Shown piece by piece: positions 2,690-8,671 of a DNA stretch of 12,423 nt. The DNA comes from a virus, in UHGV virus genome UHGV-1781828. One strand, written 5' to 3'. The notes beneath the pieces are model-generated. The model was not told the origin of the DNA. It ran no database searches and was given only the letters and a program-made list of their open reading frames with translations. The translations under genes and the position numbers were made by a program. The first letter of the stretch is position 1. Each line of letters starts with the position of its first letter.

Positions 2690-3569
2690 CGTGTTCACCC
2701 TCACGAACTTTCAGGTAGGTATTATCGTTAAGCAGGAAATCAAATCCCTTTTTGTGCCAGACGGTTCCGCGTTGATGGTTTTGGCGCTCTTCGAACATCC
2801 ATCGGCAATTTTCGCCTACGTAGCTCAAATAATTTCTCCAGTCCTGCATCGTGAACCCATGCCCGTCAAGCTGGCGGGTTATCACTCCGGCTTTGCGCCA
2901 GAACGTTCGGATCTGGTTTTTACGCTTGTCATTCAGTGCGCGGATTTTTGGCGCTTCAGGAAGGATTTCGTGGTAAGCATCGACAACATCCTGACAGCTA
3001 ACGGAAGGTTTTTTCTTGTCAGACTTTTTGTCTGCTGCGGTACTCTCTAATACGTCAGTATTAGAGATATTATTTATATTATTGTTTATGGACAACCGTT
3101 GGACAACCGTTGGACAATCTCCGCTGAGAGCCGCGCCATTACTGGTGTTTGCGTTGGACAACCGTTGGACAACCGTTGGACAATTTTTTGCCTGAAAATC
3201 GTCATATTTAACGATTGTAAACAGGCTAAATTTCTTCCCCATCGAGCAAATATTAAGCATCCCTTTCGACTCAAAAGTCCGTAATAAGCTCCGAACTTTG
3301 TTGTCGGGGATGAATGTTTCTCTGACCAGCGACGGGCGTCCAGTTATCATCTGACCGCGATCAACAGTTATCGGCCCGATATCCGTATTGACGACAGTAG
3401 ATTCGTGATTAGCCTTGAGGATTAAGTGAAGCCAAAGATGTACTGCCTGAGAGTCCTTATAGAGCCTGCTGTCCATAAACTGGCGGTGTATAGAGACATA
3501 CCCCATACTGGATGCCTCCTGATGTTGTACAGGGTTATGCCTGTAATCAGCTAACTTAACGACGCCCAT
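2679..3569 (-). CDS. Replication initiation protein, O-like (P22 gene 18-like), 296 aa
   Basis: Track ORF with strong AGGAGTG Shine-Dalgarno before ATG 3569. Sits directly upstream of, and is translationally coupled to, the helicase. Contains iterated DNA repeats inside the coding region (protein repeat CPTVVQRLS), as phage O-type initiators do. Confidence 0.85.
   Translation of the reverse strand: MGVVKLADYRHNPVQHQEASSMGYVSIHRQFMDSRLYKDSQAVHLWLHLILKANHESTVVNTDIGPITVDRGQMITGRPSLVRETFIPDNKVRSLLRTFESKGMLNICSMGKKFSLFTIVKYDDFQAKNCPTVVQRLSNANTSNGAALSGDCPTVVQRLSINNNINNISNTDVLESTAADKKSDKKKPSVSCQDVVDAYHEILPEAPKIRALNDKRKNQIRTFWRKAGVITRQLDGHGFTMQDWRNYLSYVGENCRWMFEERQNHQRGTVWHKKGFDFLLNDNTYLKVREGEHDDR
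3090..3183. repeat. Replication origin iterons inside the O-like gene
   Basis: Two clusters of the 11-bp unit ggacaaccgtt (2.5 copies each) at 3090-3117 and 3156-3183, separated by 38 bp, with an AT-rich tract (attagagatattatttatattattgtttat) immediately adjacent at about 3055-3089. Confidence 0.7.
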
Positions 3570-4147: not shown

Positions 4148-4184
4148 GTAGGACGAATGTCCATTGTGAAAATAGCGGTGTTAC

Positions 4185-4394
<210 letters not shown>

Positions 4395-4409
4395 TTAGTA
4401 CATGCAACC

Positions 4410-4481
4410 ATTATCACCGCTAGAGGTAAAATAGTCAACACGCACGGTGTTAGATATTTATCCCTTGCGGTGATAGATTTA
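4410..4481. promoter_or_regulatory. Right operator and divergent promoters PR / PRM (OR1, OR2, OR3)
   Basis: OR1 4412-4428 (tatcaccgctagaggta), OR2 4436-4452 (caacacgcacggtgtta), OR3 4459-4475 (tatcccttgcggtgata). PR -35 TTGACT and -10 GATAAT on the minus strand (plus 4433-4438 and 4410-4415). PRM -35 TAGATA at 4451-4456 and -10 GATTTA at 4476-4481, with the cI ATG at 4486 (leaderless, as in lambda). Confidence 0.9.
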
Positions 4482-4482
4482 A

Positions 4483-5199
<717 letters not shown>

Positions 5200-5217
5200 T
5201 TTTAAGGAAATATCTTC

Positions 5218-5658
5218 ATGAGAGAAGAAAAAATAATAACAATCTACACAACGGCGGTAAAACCCGGGCTGGCAATCACTCCTTTTATGACACCAGATCC
5301 TATAATAGTGTCGGAAGAATACCCTTGTTCCGGCTCATTTTACCTAACTGCAATAATGTACTTCGAGCACGAAAAAAAATACACTACCGAACTTGATGTC
5401 GTATTCAATGGAGAATCGGTTTTACCTGATATCTCTAGCAATCAAGAGCAACTGCAAACATTTATGTTTTCTCCTGTCAATGAAAAATATGTTGTGGTTG
5501 GCACATATCTTTTCGTTAAAAACATCAAACTTATAGAAACAGGAACATATGACATAATTTATCGCATCTTTGAAGACATTGATGGTAATCTTAGCGAAGT
5601 TATTGATGAAAAAAAATGCGCTCTTATTTCAACCACCCCGAACAGAGATAAGGAATGA
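5218..5658 (+). CDS. Hypothetical protein (146 aa), first gene of the cassette in the rexA position
   Basis: Track ORF starting 19 nt after the cI stop on the same strand, AAGGA Shine-Dalgarno. Visibly AT-rich compared with the flanks. Acidic, no transmembrane segment, no recognisable motif. Confidence 0.6.
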   Translation: MREEKIITIYTTAVKPGLAITPFMTPDPIIVSEEYPCSGSFYLTAIMYFEHEKKYTTELDVVFNGESVLPDISSNQEQLQTFMFSPVNEKYVVVGTYLFVKNIKLIETGTYDIIYRIFEDIDGNLSEVIDEKKCALISTTPNRDKE

Positions 5659-6011
5659 AACGACATCTGTACGCTGTGCCTCTTGACAGGAGTAAAGTTG
5701 ATAATTTTCCACATAACCACCATAATGATGAGACATATGGTGGTGGTAACGGTGGAGGTGGTGACATGTTACAGCGCATAAAAATTCTTGAAGATAAAGT
5801 CGCAACCATGGCGACCGACATCGCTGTAATTAAGTCTAACTATGCAACATCTGCCAATGTAGAATCTGTTAAAACAGACATAGCTAATGCAAAAGCAGAA
5901 CTTCACAGCGCAATGAGACTCCAAGCCATGGCTATTATTGGTTCAGTTCTTGCAGCCGTTGGAACTGGTGTTGGGTTAATAATAAAAATGATGCCATCAC
6001 TACCTCACTAA
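5655..6011 (+). CDS. Hypothetical membrane-anchored coiled-coil protein (118 aa; alternative start at 5766 gives 82 aa), second gene of the cassette in the rexB position
   Basis: ATGA overlap with the upstream gene. An in-frame ATG at 5766 has a strong GGAGGTG Shine-Dalgarno. Predicted amphipathic helical region (LQRIKILEDKVATMATDIAVIK...AKAELHSAMRLQ) followed by a single C-terminal transmembrane helix with small-xxx-small motifs (AMAIIGSVLAAVGTGVGLIIKMM). Confidence 0.6.
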   Translation: MKRHLYAVPLDRSKVDNFPHNHHNDETYGGGNGGGGDMLQRIKILEDKVATMATDIAVIKSNYATSANVESVKTDIANAKAELHSAMRLQAMAIIGSVLAAVGTGVGLIIKMMPSLPH

Positions 6012-6022
6012 GAATCTACACA

Positions 6023-6049
6023 ACCCGGCCTCAGCGCCGGGTTTTCTTT
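6023..6049 (+). terminator. Rho-independent terminator after the cassette (tImm-like position)
   Basis: ACCCGGC-ctcagc-GCCGGGT stem-loop followed by TTTCTTT, 12 nt past the stop at 6009-6011. Confidence 0.6.
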
Positions 6050-6200
6050 GCCTCACGATCTCCCCACCTAAAAACACATAACCAATTGTATTTGTTGAAA
6101 AATAAACAGATACAACTCACTAAACATAGCAATTCAGATCTCTCACCTACCAAACAATGCCCCCCTGCAAAAAATAAATTCATATAAAAAACATACAGAT

Positions 6201-6270
6201 AACCATCTGCGGTGATGAATTATCTCTAGCGGTGTTGACATAAATACCACTGGCGGTGATACTAAACACA
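6201..6270 (+). promoter_or_regulatory. Left operator and PL promoter (OL3, OL2, OL1)
   Basis: OL3 6201-6217 (aaccatctgcggtgatg), OL2 6221-6237 (tatctctagcggtgttg), OL1 6245-6261 (taccactggcggtgata). PL -35 TTGACA at 6235-6240 and -10 GATACT at 6258-6263, directing rightward transcription toward N. Layout matches the lambda PL region as recalled, with several point differences. Confidence 0.9.
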
Positions 6271-6331
6271 TCAGCAGGACGCACTACTCACCATGGCGGT
6301 GAATATACAACGATTCGAATATGAATCTACG

Positions 6332-6607: not shown

Positions 6608-6991
6608 ATGACACGCAGAACTCAGTTCAAAGGCAATTCACGTTCTCGTCGTCGTGAGCGTTTAAAGGCAAAGGCATTAGCTAACGGCGTACTGGCCCGC
6701 GAAGAAGCAATAAGTTCAGAAGTATTACACCGCCCTACTCTAAGCAGAGCGCAGATTCAGGCTAAAGGTACTCACGAAACGCCTGAGCGCATAGAAGACG
6801 CTAAGCCAATTAAGTTCATGGCACAGGACGTGATCTGGCAACAGAAAGAATACAGACGCAATCTGGAGCGAGCGGCCATTGTGTACGCGAATGAGTTTGG
6901 ACATAAGCAACCAGAAACTGGTGTATGTCTTCCAAACGTAGCCATTTACGCGGCAGGCTACCGGAAATCAAAACAACTGACGGCGAGGTGA
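6608..6991 (+). CDS. N: N-like transcription antitermination protein (P22 gene 24-like), 127 aa
   Basis: First gene downstream of PL/nutL, AGGAGG Shine-Dalgarno. N-terminal arginine-rich motif (GNSRSRRRERLKAKALA). C-terminus PNVAIYAAGYRKSKQLTAR resembles the P22 gp24 C-terminus as recalled. Confidence 0.75.
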   Translation: MTRRTQFKGNSRSRRRERLKAKALANGVLAREEAISSEVLHRPTLSRAQIQAKGTHETPERIEDAKPIKFMAQDVIWQQKEYRRNLERAAIVYANEFGHKQPETGVCLPNVAIYAAGYRKSKQLTAR

Positions 6992-7790: not shown

Positions 7791-7892
7791 TATGAATAAG
7801 CACTGTGTATTCATTCCAACGAGTGAATACACGGAGCAATGTCGCTCGTAACTAAACAGGAGCCGACTTGTTCTGATTATTGGAAATATTCT

Positions 7893-7921
7893 TTGCCCTC
7901 CAGTGTGAGGGCAATTTTTTT
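7893..7921 (+). terminator. Rho-independent terminator in the PL operon
   Basis: TTGCCCTC-cagtgt-GAGGGCAA (8-bp stem, 6-nt loop) followed by seven T residues. Confidence 0.7.
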
Positions 7922-7933
7922 GACGGAGGATAT

Positions 7934-8671
7934 ATGAGTGAAGTAACAGATTTAGTTGTTATTGAAAAAGCAAATGCAATGACTGTATTTCAGTCTGCCG
8001 ACCAGATTGAAGAAATCCTTCAAAAGGTTGAACGTGAAGTTATGTCCTTTGTGCCTGATATCACAACGGCAAAGGGCAGAAAGGAGATCGCTTCTCTGGC
8101 GTATAAAGTTGCGCAGACGAAAACATATCTCGATGGTCTTGGAAAAGACCTTGTTGCTGAACTGAAGGAAATTCCAAAGCTAATTGATGCCAACCGCAAG
8201 ACAGTGCGTGATCGCCTTGATGAGCTGAAATCCAAGGCACGCCAGCCTCTTACTGATTATGAGGAGGAACAGGCACGGATTAAAGCCGAAGAAGAAGCTA
8301 AGGCCGCAGCGGAACGTGCAGAGCGTGAACGTATTGAAGCCGAGCAACGAGCACAGCGCGAAGCAAAAGAGGCAGCAGAACGAGCTGAAAGAGAAAAGCA
8401 GGCGGCAATTGAAGCAGAACGCCGAAAAGCACAGGAGGAGGCTGAACGAATCCGGCGCGAGGCTGAAGCAAAAGAGCAAGCCAGAATAGCAGAAGAAAAA
8501 AGAATCAAGGAAGAAGAAGAGTGTAGAGCAAAGGATAAAGCTCACCGGAAAGAAGTAAATAACAAAATACTTGCTGACCTTATCAAGGTTGGCGCATCAG
8601 AAGATGTTGCTAAAAATATCATAACAGCCATCGTAAAAGGCGAAGTATTCGCAACAAAAATAACCTACTAA
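7934..8671 (+). CDS. Hypothetical protein with a long E/R/A/K-rich coiled-coil repeat region (245 aa)
   Basis: Start set at ATG 7934 (MSEVTDLVVIEK...), which has a GGAGGA Shine-Dalgarno and lies just after the terminator. The track start at 7880 would put the terminator inside the gene. The central region is a low-complexity charged repeat (AEEEAKAAAERAERERIEAEQRAQREAKEAAERAEREKQAAIEAERRKAQEEAERIRREAEAKEQARIAEEKRIKEEEE). Confidence 0.6.
   Translation: MSEVTDLVVIEKANAMTVFQSADQIEEILQKVEREVMSFVPDITTAKGRKEIASLAYKVAQTKTYLDGLGKDLVAELKEIPKLIDANRKTVRDRLDELKSKARQPLTDYEEEQARIKAEEEAKAAAERAERERIEAEQRAQREAKEAAERAEREKQAAIEAERRKAQEEAERIRREAEAKEQARIAEEKRIKEEEECRAKDKAHRKEVNNKILADLIKVGASEDVAKNIITAIVKGEVFATKITY

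What the first reader, a model, noticed from the sequence alone, without database searches (positions are those of the whole stretch)
5218..6011. AT-rich two-gene cassette in the place of rexAB, between cI and PL: candidate exclusion or abortive-infection system
In lambda the cI gene is followed on the same strand by rexA-rexB, a sensor plus membrane effector that is expressed in the lysogen and excludes other phages. Here that slot holds two unrelated genes. The first is a 146-aa acidic soluble protein. The second is an 82-118-aa protein with an amphipathic helical region and a single C-terminal transmembrane helix carrying small-xxx-small motifs. They are translationally coupled (ATGA overlap), start 19 nt after the cI stop, and end at an intrinsic terminator just before lambda-like OL, so they would be expressed with the repressor in the lysogenic state. 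The cassette is much more AT-rich than the lambda-like flanks, which suggests horizontal acquisition. A soluble partner plus a tail-anchored membrane protein is the minimal architecture expected of a sensor/membrane-disrupting effector pair. I recognise neither protein.
Basis: partly seen in the sequence, partly recalled or inferred. Interest (0 to 1): 0.75.

Follow-up and report, generated by a model that had tools for sequence, protein, structure and literature searches.

The report
Unknown two-gene cassette replacing lambda rexAB
A lambda-immunity prophage carries, exactly where lambda has its rexAB phage-exclusion genes, two real but uncharacterised genes (a small soluble Ig-like protein and a membrane-anchored coiled-coil protein) that recur behind the repressor gene of many enterobacterial prophages and are a good, untested, candidate for a new phage-exclusion system.

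Summary
Genes A (5218-5658, 146 aa) and B (5655-6011, 118 aa) start 19 nt after the cI stop, overlap by ATGA and end at lambda's own timm terminator. They replace lambda 35827-37225 (rexA and rexB) base for base.

Both genes are real: dN/dS is 0.12-0.18 for A and 0.3-0.4 for B. The pair recurs right behind prophage repressors in many Enterobacterales, with 15 different repressor DNA-binding domains among 17 compared. This exact cassette is rare: 4 of 5426 complete E. coli genomes and no sequenced phage.

A is a cytoplasmic Ig-like beta-sandwich with no specific relatives. B is a short N-tail, a Gly run, a coiled coil with a "YAT" beta-layer motif (probably trimeric) and a C-terminal glycine-zipper TM helix.

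- The Gly run encodes a conserved GGAGG plus ATG, so a short isoform of B is likely.
- The A + N-tail unit and the coil/TM unit recombine independently, and other small partners can replace A.

Distant homologues were already noted as unknown "rex-position" genes in phage epsilon34 (genes 45/44) and HK244/HK542.

Function is untested, and Pfam, NCBIfam and PADLOC give no hit. Lysogen-expressed phage exclusion through a membrane effector is the best guess, at about 0.45.

The parts
4486..5199 (+). cI repressor (lambda immunity). This is the upstream gene of the operon, included as context.
   Evidence: 237-aa ORF. Window 4171-5200 is 97% identical to lambda 38255-37226. Annotated as a LexA family protein in E. 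coli ABWA45.
5204..5208 (+). Shine-Dalgarno-like AAGGA, 9 nt before the gene A start codon.
   Evidence: Read directly from the sequence.
5218..5658 (+). Gene A: 146 aa, acidic (pI 4.56), cytoplasmic, single-domain Ig-like beta-sandwich.
5655..6011 (+). Gene B, long form: 118 aa, a tail-anchored coiled-coil inner-membrane protein. Its start codon overlaps the gene A stop (ATGA).
   Evidence: ORF. 68 homologue clusters. AF2 model: residues 1-35 disordered, helices 36-63 and 66-112. dN/dS is 0.3-0.4. PHROG 6324 at E 1e-11, function unknown.
5655..5738 (+). B N-tail (aa 1-28, MKRHLYAVPLDRSKVDNFPHNHHNDETY): a disordered cytoplasmic tail that co-varies with partner A.
   Evidence: Conserved as MKRHLYxVPLDG...PHND in class I pairs. 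Identity of the N-tail tracks identity of A (Spearman 0.28). Identity of the coil/TM core does not (0.02). dN/dS is about 0.25 in diverged pairs.
5739..5765 (+). Gly run (GGGNGGGGD). It acts as a linker and recombination joint. Its codons contain an internal Shine-Dalgarno GGAGG at 5754-5758.
   Evidence: G34 and G35 are at least 90% conserved. An SD-like pentamer lies 3-11 nt before the conserved Met in 24 of 27 diverse homologues. Synonymous-codon resampling expects 10.6, and none of 200000 simulations reached 24.
5766..6011 (+). Probable internal-start product B-short (Met38 to the end, 81 aa): coiled coil plus TM only.
   Evidence: Met38 is at least 90% conserved and is GTG in Salmonella L003. 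Gene callers chose this start in L004, L006, L113 and L114. Stand-alone 78-aa chromosomal homologues begin at this position.
5817..5858 (+). Core motif DIAVIKSNYATSAN. Heptads run into a Y63-A64-T65 beta-layer, a marker of trimeric alpha/beta coiled coils.
   Evidence: Invariant or near-invariant D55, A57 and S61-T65. The profile hits PDB 5apz, the Tcar0761 alpha/beta coiled coil, at E 4.1e-6. The published consensus is [aliphatic]-A-T-K-polar-[DE] (PMC4786415). All 8 a/d positions of residues 38-63 are hydrophobic.
5925..5984 (+). C-terminal transmembrane helix (about aa 91-110, AMAIIGSVLAAVGTGVGLII) with glycine-zipper-like small-xxx-small spacing. Eight residues follow it.
   Evidence: KD hydropathy maximum 2.23 for the window starting at residue 92, and it is the only such segment. 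Part of helix 66-112 in the model.
6022..6051 (+). Intrinsic terminator, identical to lambda timm. It marks the end of the operon.
   Evidence: 8-bp stem with 6 GC pairs plus TTCTTT. 100% match to lambda 35788-35826. Annotated as Timm in HK244. Equivalent hairpins follow B in 17 of 19 homologous loci.
5698..5726 (+). Weak lead only: a sigma-70-like TTGATA-17-CATAAT inside the B N-tail coding region. It could drive a transcript for B-short alone, as lambda PLIT does for rexB.
   Evidence: Scores 10 of 12. However, the number of such sites in the region (4) is not above the shuffled expectation (5.7). Conservation was not tested.
6235..6263 (+). PL promoter with OL operators. Context that marks the right-hand edge of the slot.
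   Evidence: TTGACA-17-GATACT. Window 6022-6302 is 94% identical to lambda 35826-35550.

Best explanation
Genes A and B are a mobile accessory ('moron') cassette carried as passengers of the prophage repressor operon, so they are made in the lysogen.

What the parts are:
- A is a small cytoplasmic Ig-like binding protein.
- B is a tail-anchored inner-membrane protein. Its cytoplasmic part is a probably trimeric alpha/beta coiled coil. Its C-terminal helix is a glycine-zipper TM segment.
- B is probably made in two forms. The long form has a flexible N-tail that is inferred to dock A. The short form starts at the internal SD/Met38 and lacks that tail.

Most likely role: protecting the lysogen against other phages. 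This would be the functional counterpart of RexA/RexB, built from unrelated proteins. In this reading A, held on the B stalk at the membrane, senses or is titrated by a component of an infecting phage. The coil/TM module then changes its oligomeric state and compromises the membrane (abortive infection) or blocks an early membrane-associated step.

Shown: the anatomy, conservation, synteny, modularity and the internal SD.
Inferred: expression from PRM/PRE, A binding to the N-tail, the trimeric state, anti-phage function and the membrane mechanism.
For: 1. Exact replacement of rexAB between the cI stop and timm.
2. Conserved operon anatomy in about 19 loci: repressor, then a short gap, then A, then B overlapping or within 3 nt, then a terminator.
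3. The pair follows S24 cI repressors with 15 different DNA-binding domains among the 17 compared. It also follows HTH-only repressors (L039, L052) and a Mnt-like RHH repressor next to arc/ant (L059). A B-like gene follows mnt, in the sieA slot, in phage UPF_BP1. The common factor is linkage to a lysogeny repressor.
4. Other occupants of this slot are exclusion systems (rexAB, bstA), and the slot is a described mosaic hotspot (PMC8585504).
5. Arms-race-like mosaicism:
   - The coil/TM modules are swapped behind a 97%-identical A.
   - Partner A is replaced by Zn-ribbon-like or other small proteins.
   - There is an IS2 insertion in one copy.
   - The distribution is patchy: 4 of 5426 E. coli genomes.
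6. Both genes are under purifying selection.
7. B has the beta-layer trimer motif and a glycine-zipper TM helix. Relatives are labelled XhlA-like, a membrane-associated lysis-cassette protein family.
8. The conserved internal SD and Met suggest control by isoform ratio.
Against: - There are no functional data of any kind.
- No PADLOC model matches.
- A's fold is generic and gives no clue to a ligand.
- B is predicted N-in, so almost nothing is exposed to the periplasm. A three-helix TM bundle is not obviously a pore.
- Many relatives of B's core are stand-alone chromosomal genes outside prophages. The module therefore has some non-defence role elsewhere.
- The conserved GGAGG could reflect a conserved recombination joint rather than a used start site.
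- Expression with cI is inferred from position only.
Confidence: 0.45

Rival explanations
1. Entry-blocking superinfection exclusion rather than abortive infection. The membrane-anchored B stalk with A at its tip would sit at the cytoplasmic face of the inner membrane. There it would interfere with the DNA-delivery conduit or with ejection proteins of incoming phages, or with a host inner-membrane protein they need. The cell would survive.
For: A B-like gene lies downstream of mnt, in the slot that holds sieA in P22 (PMC2629481 describes the 'ant moron'). [quoted passage not shown] A and B are both at the membrane or cytoplasmic. Ig-like domains are typical protein binders.
Against: B has one C-terminal TM helix and only about 8 periplasmic residues. 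SieA has three TM helices and is unrelated. Nothing here distinguishes blocking from abortive infection.
Confidence: 0.2
2. Not anti-phage. The cassette would be a lysogeny, host-physiology or induction-related accessory module. Examples are modulation of an inner-membrane protease or stress pathway, of lysis timing after induction (XhlA-like helper), or of host fitness.
For: Relatives of B's core are widespread as stand-alone chromosomal genes. One sits in a conserved site between a DUF903 gene and TerC/mutH in Pseudescherichia. Some are labelled XhlA, and 5 of 42 relatives weakly hit PF10779. No defence model matches.
Against: A lysis helper would be expected in the late operon, not behind cI or mnt. 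The extreme mosaicism and patchy distribution fit conflict genes better than housekeeping ones. The window's own B does not hit PF10779.
Confidence: 0.22
3. A toxin-antitoxin-like addiction module that stabilises the prophage. B-short would be a small membrane toxin. A, together with the N-tailed long form, would neutralise it.
For: Two tightly coupled small genes. A membrane-active short isoform is possible from the internal start. The antitoxin-like acidic partner is encoded first.
Against: No similarity to known TA families. An integrated prophage gains little from addiction. The partner classes are very diverse and lack DNA-binding features.
Confidence: 0.1
4. The ORFs are not functional genes (chance ORFs or decaying remnants).
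For: Annotated only as hypothetical proteins. One copy is disrupted by IS2.
Against: dN/dS is 0.12-0.4. Homologues have conserved length and order in many genera. The AF2 model of A is confident.
Confidence: 0.02

Closest known systems
Lambda RexA/RexB (abortive infection/exclusion)
   Same: Identical genomic slot, with base-exact replacement between the cI stop and timm. Two genes on the repressor strand: the first is soluble and the second is a membrane protein. A possible extra route to the membrane component alone (internal SD/Met38 here, the PLIT promoter for rexB in lambda).
   Different: No sequence or fold relationship: the phage tblastn searches with A and B matched no phage record, lambda included, and there are no family hits. 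RexA is 279 aa and RexB is a 144-aa polytopic protein (CDS lengths). Here A is a 146-aa Ig-like domain and B is a single-pass tail-anchored coiled coil. Function here is untested.
Phage epsilon34 genes 45/44, and HK244/HK542 genes HK24405/HK24404 (uncharacterised 'rex-position' genes)
   Same: Same cassette family. The epsilon34 gp45-type protein (P0109) is found by the A profile at E 9e-24, and gp44 has the N-tail, Gly run, coiled coil and C-terminal TM. HK24405 matches the A profile (hhalign 95.6%, E 1.3e-8), and HK24404 is a coiled-coil/TM protein. All lie directly behind the repressor. Villafane et al. [quoted passage not shown]
   Different: Only about 20% identity in A. The coil/TM modules are different (no NYAT beta-layer in epsilon34 gp44, and 206 aa in HK244). 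The window's own version is absent from all 50,697 phage records. None has been studied functionally.
BstA (BTP1 and other prophages)
   Same: Encoded immediately downstream of the cI-type repressor and expressed in lysogens. It shows that this slot is a home for abortive-infection genes (PMC8585504).
   Different: BstA is a single protein that localises to sites of phage DNA replication and has a DNA-based self-immunity element (aba). It is unrelated in sequence and architecture.
XhlA (PF10779; PBSX-type lysis-cassette membrane protein)
   Same: Same gross architecture: a short coiled coil plus a C-terminal TM helix. NCBI names several B relatives 'hemolysin XhlA', and 5 of 42 relatives weakly hit PF10779 (best E 2.3e-4).
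   Different: The window's B gives no PF10779 hit even at E up to 1. XhlA lies in late lysis cassettes, not behind repressors. XhlA has no N-tail, Gly run or partner A.
DUF3782/DUF1640-type alpha/beta coiled coils (Tcar0761; beta-layer proteins)
   Same: B's invariant IAVIKSN-YAT-xxD matches the beta-layer arrangement abcdefg-bbb-efg and the consensus [aliphatic]-A-T-K-polar-[DE]. The profile hits 5apz at E 4e-6. [quoted passage not shown]
   Different: The resemblance is limited to a short structural motif. There is no Pfam-level membership, and the function of those families gives no lead.
P22 SieA
   Same: Lysogen-expressed inner-membrane exclusion protein. B-like genes occupy its slot behind mnt in other P22-like phages.
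   Different: SieA has three TM helices, no partner and no similarity.

Membership tests
RexAB system | Sequence homology to RexA and RexB | tested here: not met
   Megablast of the cassette DNA matches lambda only at the terminator. The tblastn searches with A and with B against all 50,697 phage records, which include lambda, found no match. No Pfam or NCBIfam hit.
RexAB system | Position downstream of cI on the same strand, ending at timm | tested here: met
   The junctions fall exactly at the cI stop and at the rexB stop/timm.
RexAB system | Excludes T4 rII and other phages by membrane depolarisation | not testable with these tools
   Needs plating and membrane-potential assays.
Known anti-phage defence systems (PADLOC-DB v2.0.0) | Match to any defence-protein HMM | tested here: not met
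   0 families for either protein at E up to 1. The library dates from 2023, and DefenseFinder was not available.
XhlA (PF10779) | Pfam model match at the gathering threshold | tested here: not met
   No hit for the window's B at E up to 1. Only 5 of 42 relatives hit, with best E 2.3e-4.
XhlA (PF10779) | Located in a late lysis cassette with holin and endolysin | tested here: not met
   The gene lies between cI and PL, while the holin and lysozyme genes are kilobases away.
epsilon34 gp45/gp44 and HK24405/HK24404 cassette family (uncharacterised) | A-like protein detectable by profile | tested here: met
   P0109, which is 97% identical to epsilon34 gp45, is found by profile A3 at E 9e-24. HK24405 matches at hhalign 95.6%.
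epsilon34 gp45/gp44 and HK24405/HK24404 cassette family (uncharacterised) | Second gene is N-tail, (Gly run), coiled coil and C-terminal TM, coupled to the first gene, directly behind a lysogeny repressor and followed by a terminator | tested here: met
Beta-layer (alpha/beta) trimeric coiled coils | Heptads interrupted by a hexad or nonad with [aliphatic]-A-T-K-polar-[DE] | tested here: met
   The sequence is IAVIKSN-YAT-SAN-V. All 8 a/d positions are hydrophobic up to Y63. The profile hits 5apz at E 4.1e-6. The consensus is taken from PMC4786415. The window itself has S-A-N where the family consensus has K-x-D.
Beta-layer (alpha/beta) trimeric coiled coils | Trimeric oligomeric state | not testable with these tools
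   Only a monomer model was possible. Needs SEC-MALS, cross-linking or a multimer prediction.
P22 SieA | About 160-aa protein with three TM helices, homologous to SieA | tested here: not met
   B has one TM segment. SieA features are taken from PMC10883804. No phage tblastn match.

The most novel reading that the evidence does not exclude
The cassette is the founding example of a widespread, modular, repressor-linked prophage defence family.
- A constant, trimeric tail-anchored coiled-coil effector is made in two isoforms from a dual-start gene. The internal ribosome-binding site is written in the codons of a Gly linker.
- The effector is coupled through an exchangeable N-tail to interchangeable small sensor proteins: Ig-like, Zn-ribbon-like and others.
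- The ratio of tailed to untailed subunits in the trimer sets the trigger threshold for membrane disruption on infection.
Probability: 0.15. Interest if true: 0.8.

Novelty: new variant of a known kind. Interest (0 to 1): 0.55.

Why it matters
[quoted passage not shown] It has already yielded RexAB and BstA.

This work defines a third, unrelated occupant as a family spread across Enterobacterales, with looser relatives in Halomonas, Oceanimonas and Methylococcales. It gives clear module boundaries and a testable feature: an internal start that would produce a tail-less isoform.

If it is a defence system, it would add a compact, about 0.8-kb, two-gene membrane-acting system with swappable sensors. 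It would also explain genes left as 'no match' in phages epsilon34, HK244 and HK542 since 2007-2008.

If it is not a defence system, it still shows what else prophages express with their repressor.

Tried and rejected
- Phage database. Megablast and tblastn of the cassette and of both proteins against 50,697 phage records matched only the timm terminator.
- Family libraries. Pfam, NCBIfam and PADLOC gave nothing for either protein. PHROGs gave only unknown-function families for B and a marginal hit for A.
- PDB by sequence. Nothing for A. For B, only the beta-layer coiled-coil constructs and generic coiled coils.
  - The afdb50 library was unavailable.
- Literature.
  - Searches by WP accession found nothing.
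  - Degnan et al. 2007 is not held in the library, so its content is cited only through the GenBank records and through Owen et al. 2021.
  - The 434/21 genome note says nothing about this slot.
- Rfam and tRNA scans of the window were empty.
- Readings rejected:
  - XhlA membership.
  - SieA relationship.
  - An internal sigma-70 promoter as a solid feature, because the number of sites is not above the shuffled expectation.
  - Antisense ORFs inside the cassette (poly-Pro reading of the Gly codons), which I judge spurious.
Full report
**1. What is in the window**

The window is the early region of a lambdoid prophage with lambda immunity. The left arm, on the minus strand, holds cro (4185-4385), a cII-like gene, O-like and DnaB-like replication genes and ninB. 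On the plus strand, cI (4486-5199) is followed by two ORFs. Gene A is 5218-5658 (146 aa) and gene B is 5655-6011 (118 aa).

Gene A starts 19 nt after the cI stop, behind an AAGGA. Gene B overlaps A by ATGA. A hairpin with a T tract at 6022-6051 and a PL-type promoter at 6235-6263 follow.

BLAST against lambda places the junctions exactly:
- Homology (97%) runs through cI and stops at window 5200 = lambda 37226, one base after the cI stop.
- Homology resumes at window 6022 = lambda 35826, inside the rexB stop codon at the start of timm.

The 821 bp between these points therefore replace lambda's 1399 bp (spacer + rexA + rexB) as a clean cassette swap.

GC is 38.7% for the cassette against 45.7% for cI and 44.9% for the window. 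The cassette is AT-richer, but only moderately.

**2. Are these real genes?**

Yes.
- Against orthologues from Salmonella, Enterobacter, Serratia and metagenomic contigs, dN/dS is 0.12-0.18 for A and 0.3-0.4 for B. The B N-terminal 37 codons give about 0.25 in the diverged comparisons.
- A has 27 homologue clusters at phmmer level and 64 with a profile of divergent members.
- A has only 59 representatives among 1.84 billion proteins, nearly all single-domain proteins of 143-153 aa.
- B has 68 clusters.

**3. Distribution and context**

This exact cassette is rare. It is in 4 of 5426 complete E. coli genomes: ABWA45 at 100% identity, ECONIH5, Br_190_kylling and C236-04A. It is in none of 50,697 phage records, at either DNA or protein level.

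In C236-04A the cassette follows a different repressor, and its gene A is interrupted by IS2.

Every prophage-borne homologous pair I looked up lies in the same place, directly downstream of and co-oriented with the lysogeny repressor:
- Salmonella (L003-6), Enterobacter (L007-10), Serratia (L011), Pantoea (L015-17) and Pectobacterium (L021).
- Metagenomic contigs (L018-20, L023-25, L113-114).
- Dryocola, Brenneria, Siccibacter and Serratia sp. Ag1.

The 17 S24-type repressors involved fall into 15 different DNA-binding-domain clusters at 60% identity. In L039 and L052 the repressor is an HTH-only protein. In Photorhabdus (L059) it is a Mnt-like RHH protein next to arc- and ant-like genes.

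Operon anatomy is conserved:
- The repressor-to-A gap is mostly 0-100 nt.
- A and B overlap or are 1-3 nt apart.
- An intrinsic terminator lies within about 30 nt of the B stop in 17 of 19 loci.

The one clear exception is L043, where the pair sits among tail and baseplate genes.

**4. The proteins**

*Protein A.* It is acidic (pI 4.56) with no hydrophobic segment or signal peptide. AlphaFold2 with 23 sequences gives a confident all-beta sandwich (pLDDT 84, pTM 0.78).

Divergent partners of 136-157 aa align over their full length. The conserved pattern is (E/N)KI..(Y/F)P, a Pro near position 26, G-x-Y-x-(V/I) and a C-terminal YF-x-V.

*Protein B.* It has four parts:
- A disordered N-tail, residues 1-28.
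- A Gly run, GGGNGGGGD.
- A helix from Met38 with a perfect heptad pattern (8 of 8 a/d positions hydrophobic). It runs into the invariant motif IAVIKSN-YAT-xxD, followed by more coiled coil.
- A single C-terminal TM helix, about residues 91-110, with small-xxx-small spacing and 8 residues after it.

A profile of the family hits PDB 5apz, the Tcar0761 alpha/beta coiled coil, at E 4.1e-6. The motif matches the published beta-layer consensus [aliphatic]-A-T-K-polar-[DE]. In Hartmann et al. (eLife 2016, PMC4786415) this motif always gave trimers. It also marks DUF3782 and the membrane-protein family DUF1640.

I therefore infer a parallel trimer, anchored N-in by its tail. This is an inference, not a result.

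**5.

(a) *An internal start.* The Gly-run codons spell GGAGG (5754-5758), 7 nt before ATG-Met38 (5766).
- In 24 of 27 B-like genes from very diverse taxa an SD-like pentamer lies 3-11 nt before the conserved Met. In Salmonella L003 that codon is GTG.
- Resampling synonymous codons with locus-specific usage expects 10.6. None of 200000 simulations reached 24.
- Gene callers pick this internal start in L004, L006, L113 and L114, although the upstream frame is open and conserved.
- Stand-alone 78-aa chromosomal homologues begin exactly there.
- I conclude that a short isoform (81 aa, coil + TM only) is probably made besides the 118-aa form.
- Caveats: the loci are not phylogenetically independent, and a conserved recombination joint could also preserve these bases.

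(b) *Modularity.*
- Identity of the N-tail tracks identity of A (Spearman 0.28). Identity of the coil/TM core does not (0.02).
- The window and L023 share 97% (A) and 93% (N-tail) but only 25% in the core.
- At least four core types exist.

(c) *Partner exchange.* B-like genes with an N-tail and Gly run also pair with other partners:
- Proteins of about 110-127 aa with two CxxC motifs: Enterobacter phage ENT1 behind its cI, plus Mixta, Halomonas, Oceanimonas and Xenorhabdus.
- Proteins of about 90-97 aa in Methylococcales.

(d) *The core motif is widespread.* D[IV]A[VI][IM][KR]SNY occurs in many stand-alone coiled-coil/TM proteins of Gamma- and Betaproteobacteria, some with long repeats.

**6. 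Precedents**

- Salmonella phage epsilon34 genes 45 and 44 are distant members of the same cassette family. [quoted passage not shown]
- The wild lambda-immunity phages HK244 and HK542 (GenBank EF120457/8, from Degnan et al. 2007) carry HK24405 plus a 206-aa coiled-coil/TM protein between cI and Timm. HK24405 matches the A profile (hhalign 95.6%, E 1.3e-8).
- Owen et al. 2021 describe the cI-N interval as a mosaic hotspot that holds rexAB in lambda and bstA in BTP1.
- I found no functional study of any member.

**7. Interpretation**

*What is shown.* This is a real, conserved, mobile two-gene cassette tied to lysogeny repressors. It combines a soluble Ig-like protein with a tail-anchored coiled-coil protein that has a conserved internal SD and Met.

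*What is inferred.* Expression from PRM/PRE, docking of A on the B N-tail, trimerisation and function.

The prior from this slot, the mosaic and patchy distribution and the membrane effector make lysogen-expressed phage exclusion the best reading (about 0.45). A Rex-like sensor-to-membrane mechanism is less certain.

The rivals are:
- Entry-blocking exclusion (0.2).
- A non-defence lysogeny or physiology role (0.22).
- A TA-like addiction module (0.1).
- Non-genes (0.02).

The system is not a member of RexAB, XhlA, SieA or any PADLOC family on the tests run.

**8. Verdict**

The finding is sound, and its interpretation is plausible but unproven. It is not unprecedented, because homologous 'rex-position' pairs have been noted before. 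It is uncharacterised, and the dual-start and modular architecture gives concrete experiments.

Novelty: a new variant of a known kind, namely repressor-linked prophage accessory or exclusion cassettes. Interest: 0.55.

Noticed in passing
window 5754-5768, and homologous positions in L003-L114: The Gly linker of gene B doubles as a Shine-Dalgarno sequence (GGAGG) for a conserved in-frame Met. This holds in 24 of 27 diverse homologues against 10.6 expected from synonymous-codon resampling. It suggests a dual-start gene.
   Followed up: yes
L028-L035 (Pseudescherichia and Escherichia sp. ESNIH1), about 3007-3276; L012-L014: A stand-alone 78-85-aa homologue of the coil/TM core of B sits at a conserved chromosomal site. 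It lies between a DUF903 lipoprotein gene and TerC/mutH, outside any prophage, and is named 'hemolysin XhlA' by NCBI.
   Followed up: partly
L002 4681-5909 (E. coli C236-04A): An IS2 is inserted between the repressor and the cassette and truncates the 5' end of gene A (122 aa remain). The repressor there is of a different immunity type from the window's.
   Followed up: partly
L027 3048-3785 (Salmonella phage UPF_BP1); L059 2045-3222 (Photorhabdus): B-like genes (Gly run, coiled coil, C-terminal TM), preceded by a small gene, lie downstream of Mnt-type repressors in immI-like regions. This is the slot that holds sieA in P22.
   Followed up: partly
L026 3033-3749 (Enterobacter phage ENT1, PV358077, unannotated record): Behind its cI-like repressor, an isolated phage carries a 127-aa protein with two CxxC motifs plus a B-like gene. 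The coil/TM module of that B-like gene is 76% identical to the one in L023/L025.
   Followed up: partly
L076, L087, L088 and other Xenorhabdus loci: Very long relatives of the B core (up to 442 aa) carry many tandem repeats of about 11-14 residues between the NYATK motif and the C-terminal TM helix.
   Followed up: no
window 5655-5765 and homologues: A P-x-H or aromatic-His motif sits just before the Gly run (PHNHHND, PHNDF, FPQH, YKPH). It is conserved whatever the class of upstream partner.
   Followed up: no
window 6608-6991: The N antiterminator is not lambda's. Lambda homology ends at window 6302. This makes the prophage a mosaic of lambda immunity with a non-lambda N and PL operon. From memory only, the N looks like the H-19B/933W type. 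This was not tested.
   Followed up: no
window 7880-8671: A 263-aa ORF with an extremely Glu/Ala/Lys/Arg-rich central region (AT skew up to 0.66) lies in the PL operon. Its function is unknown.
   Followed up: no
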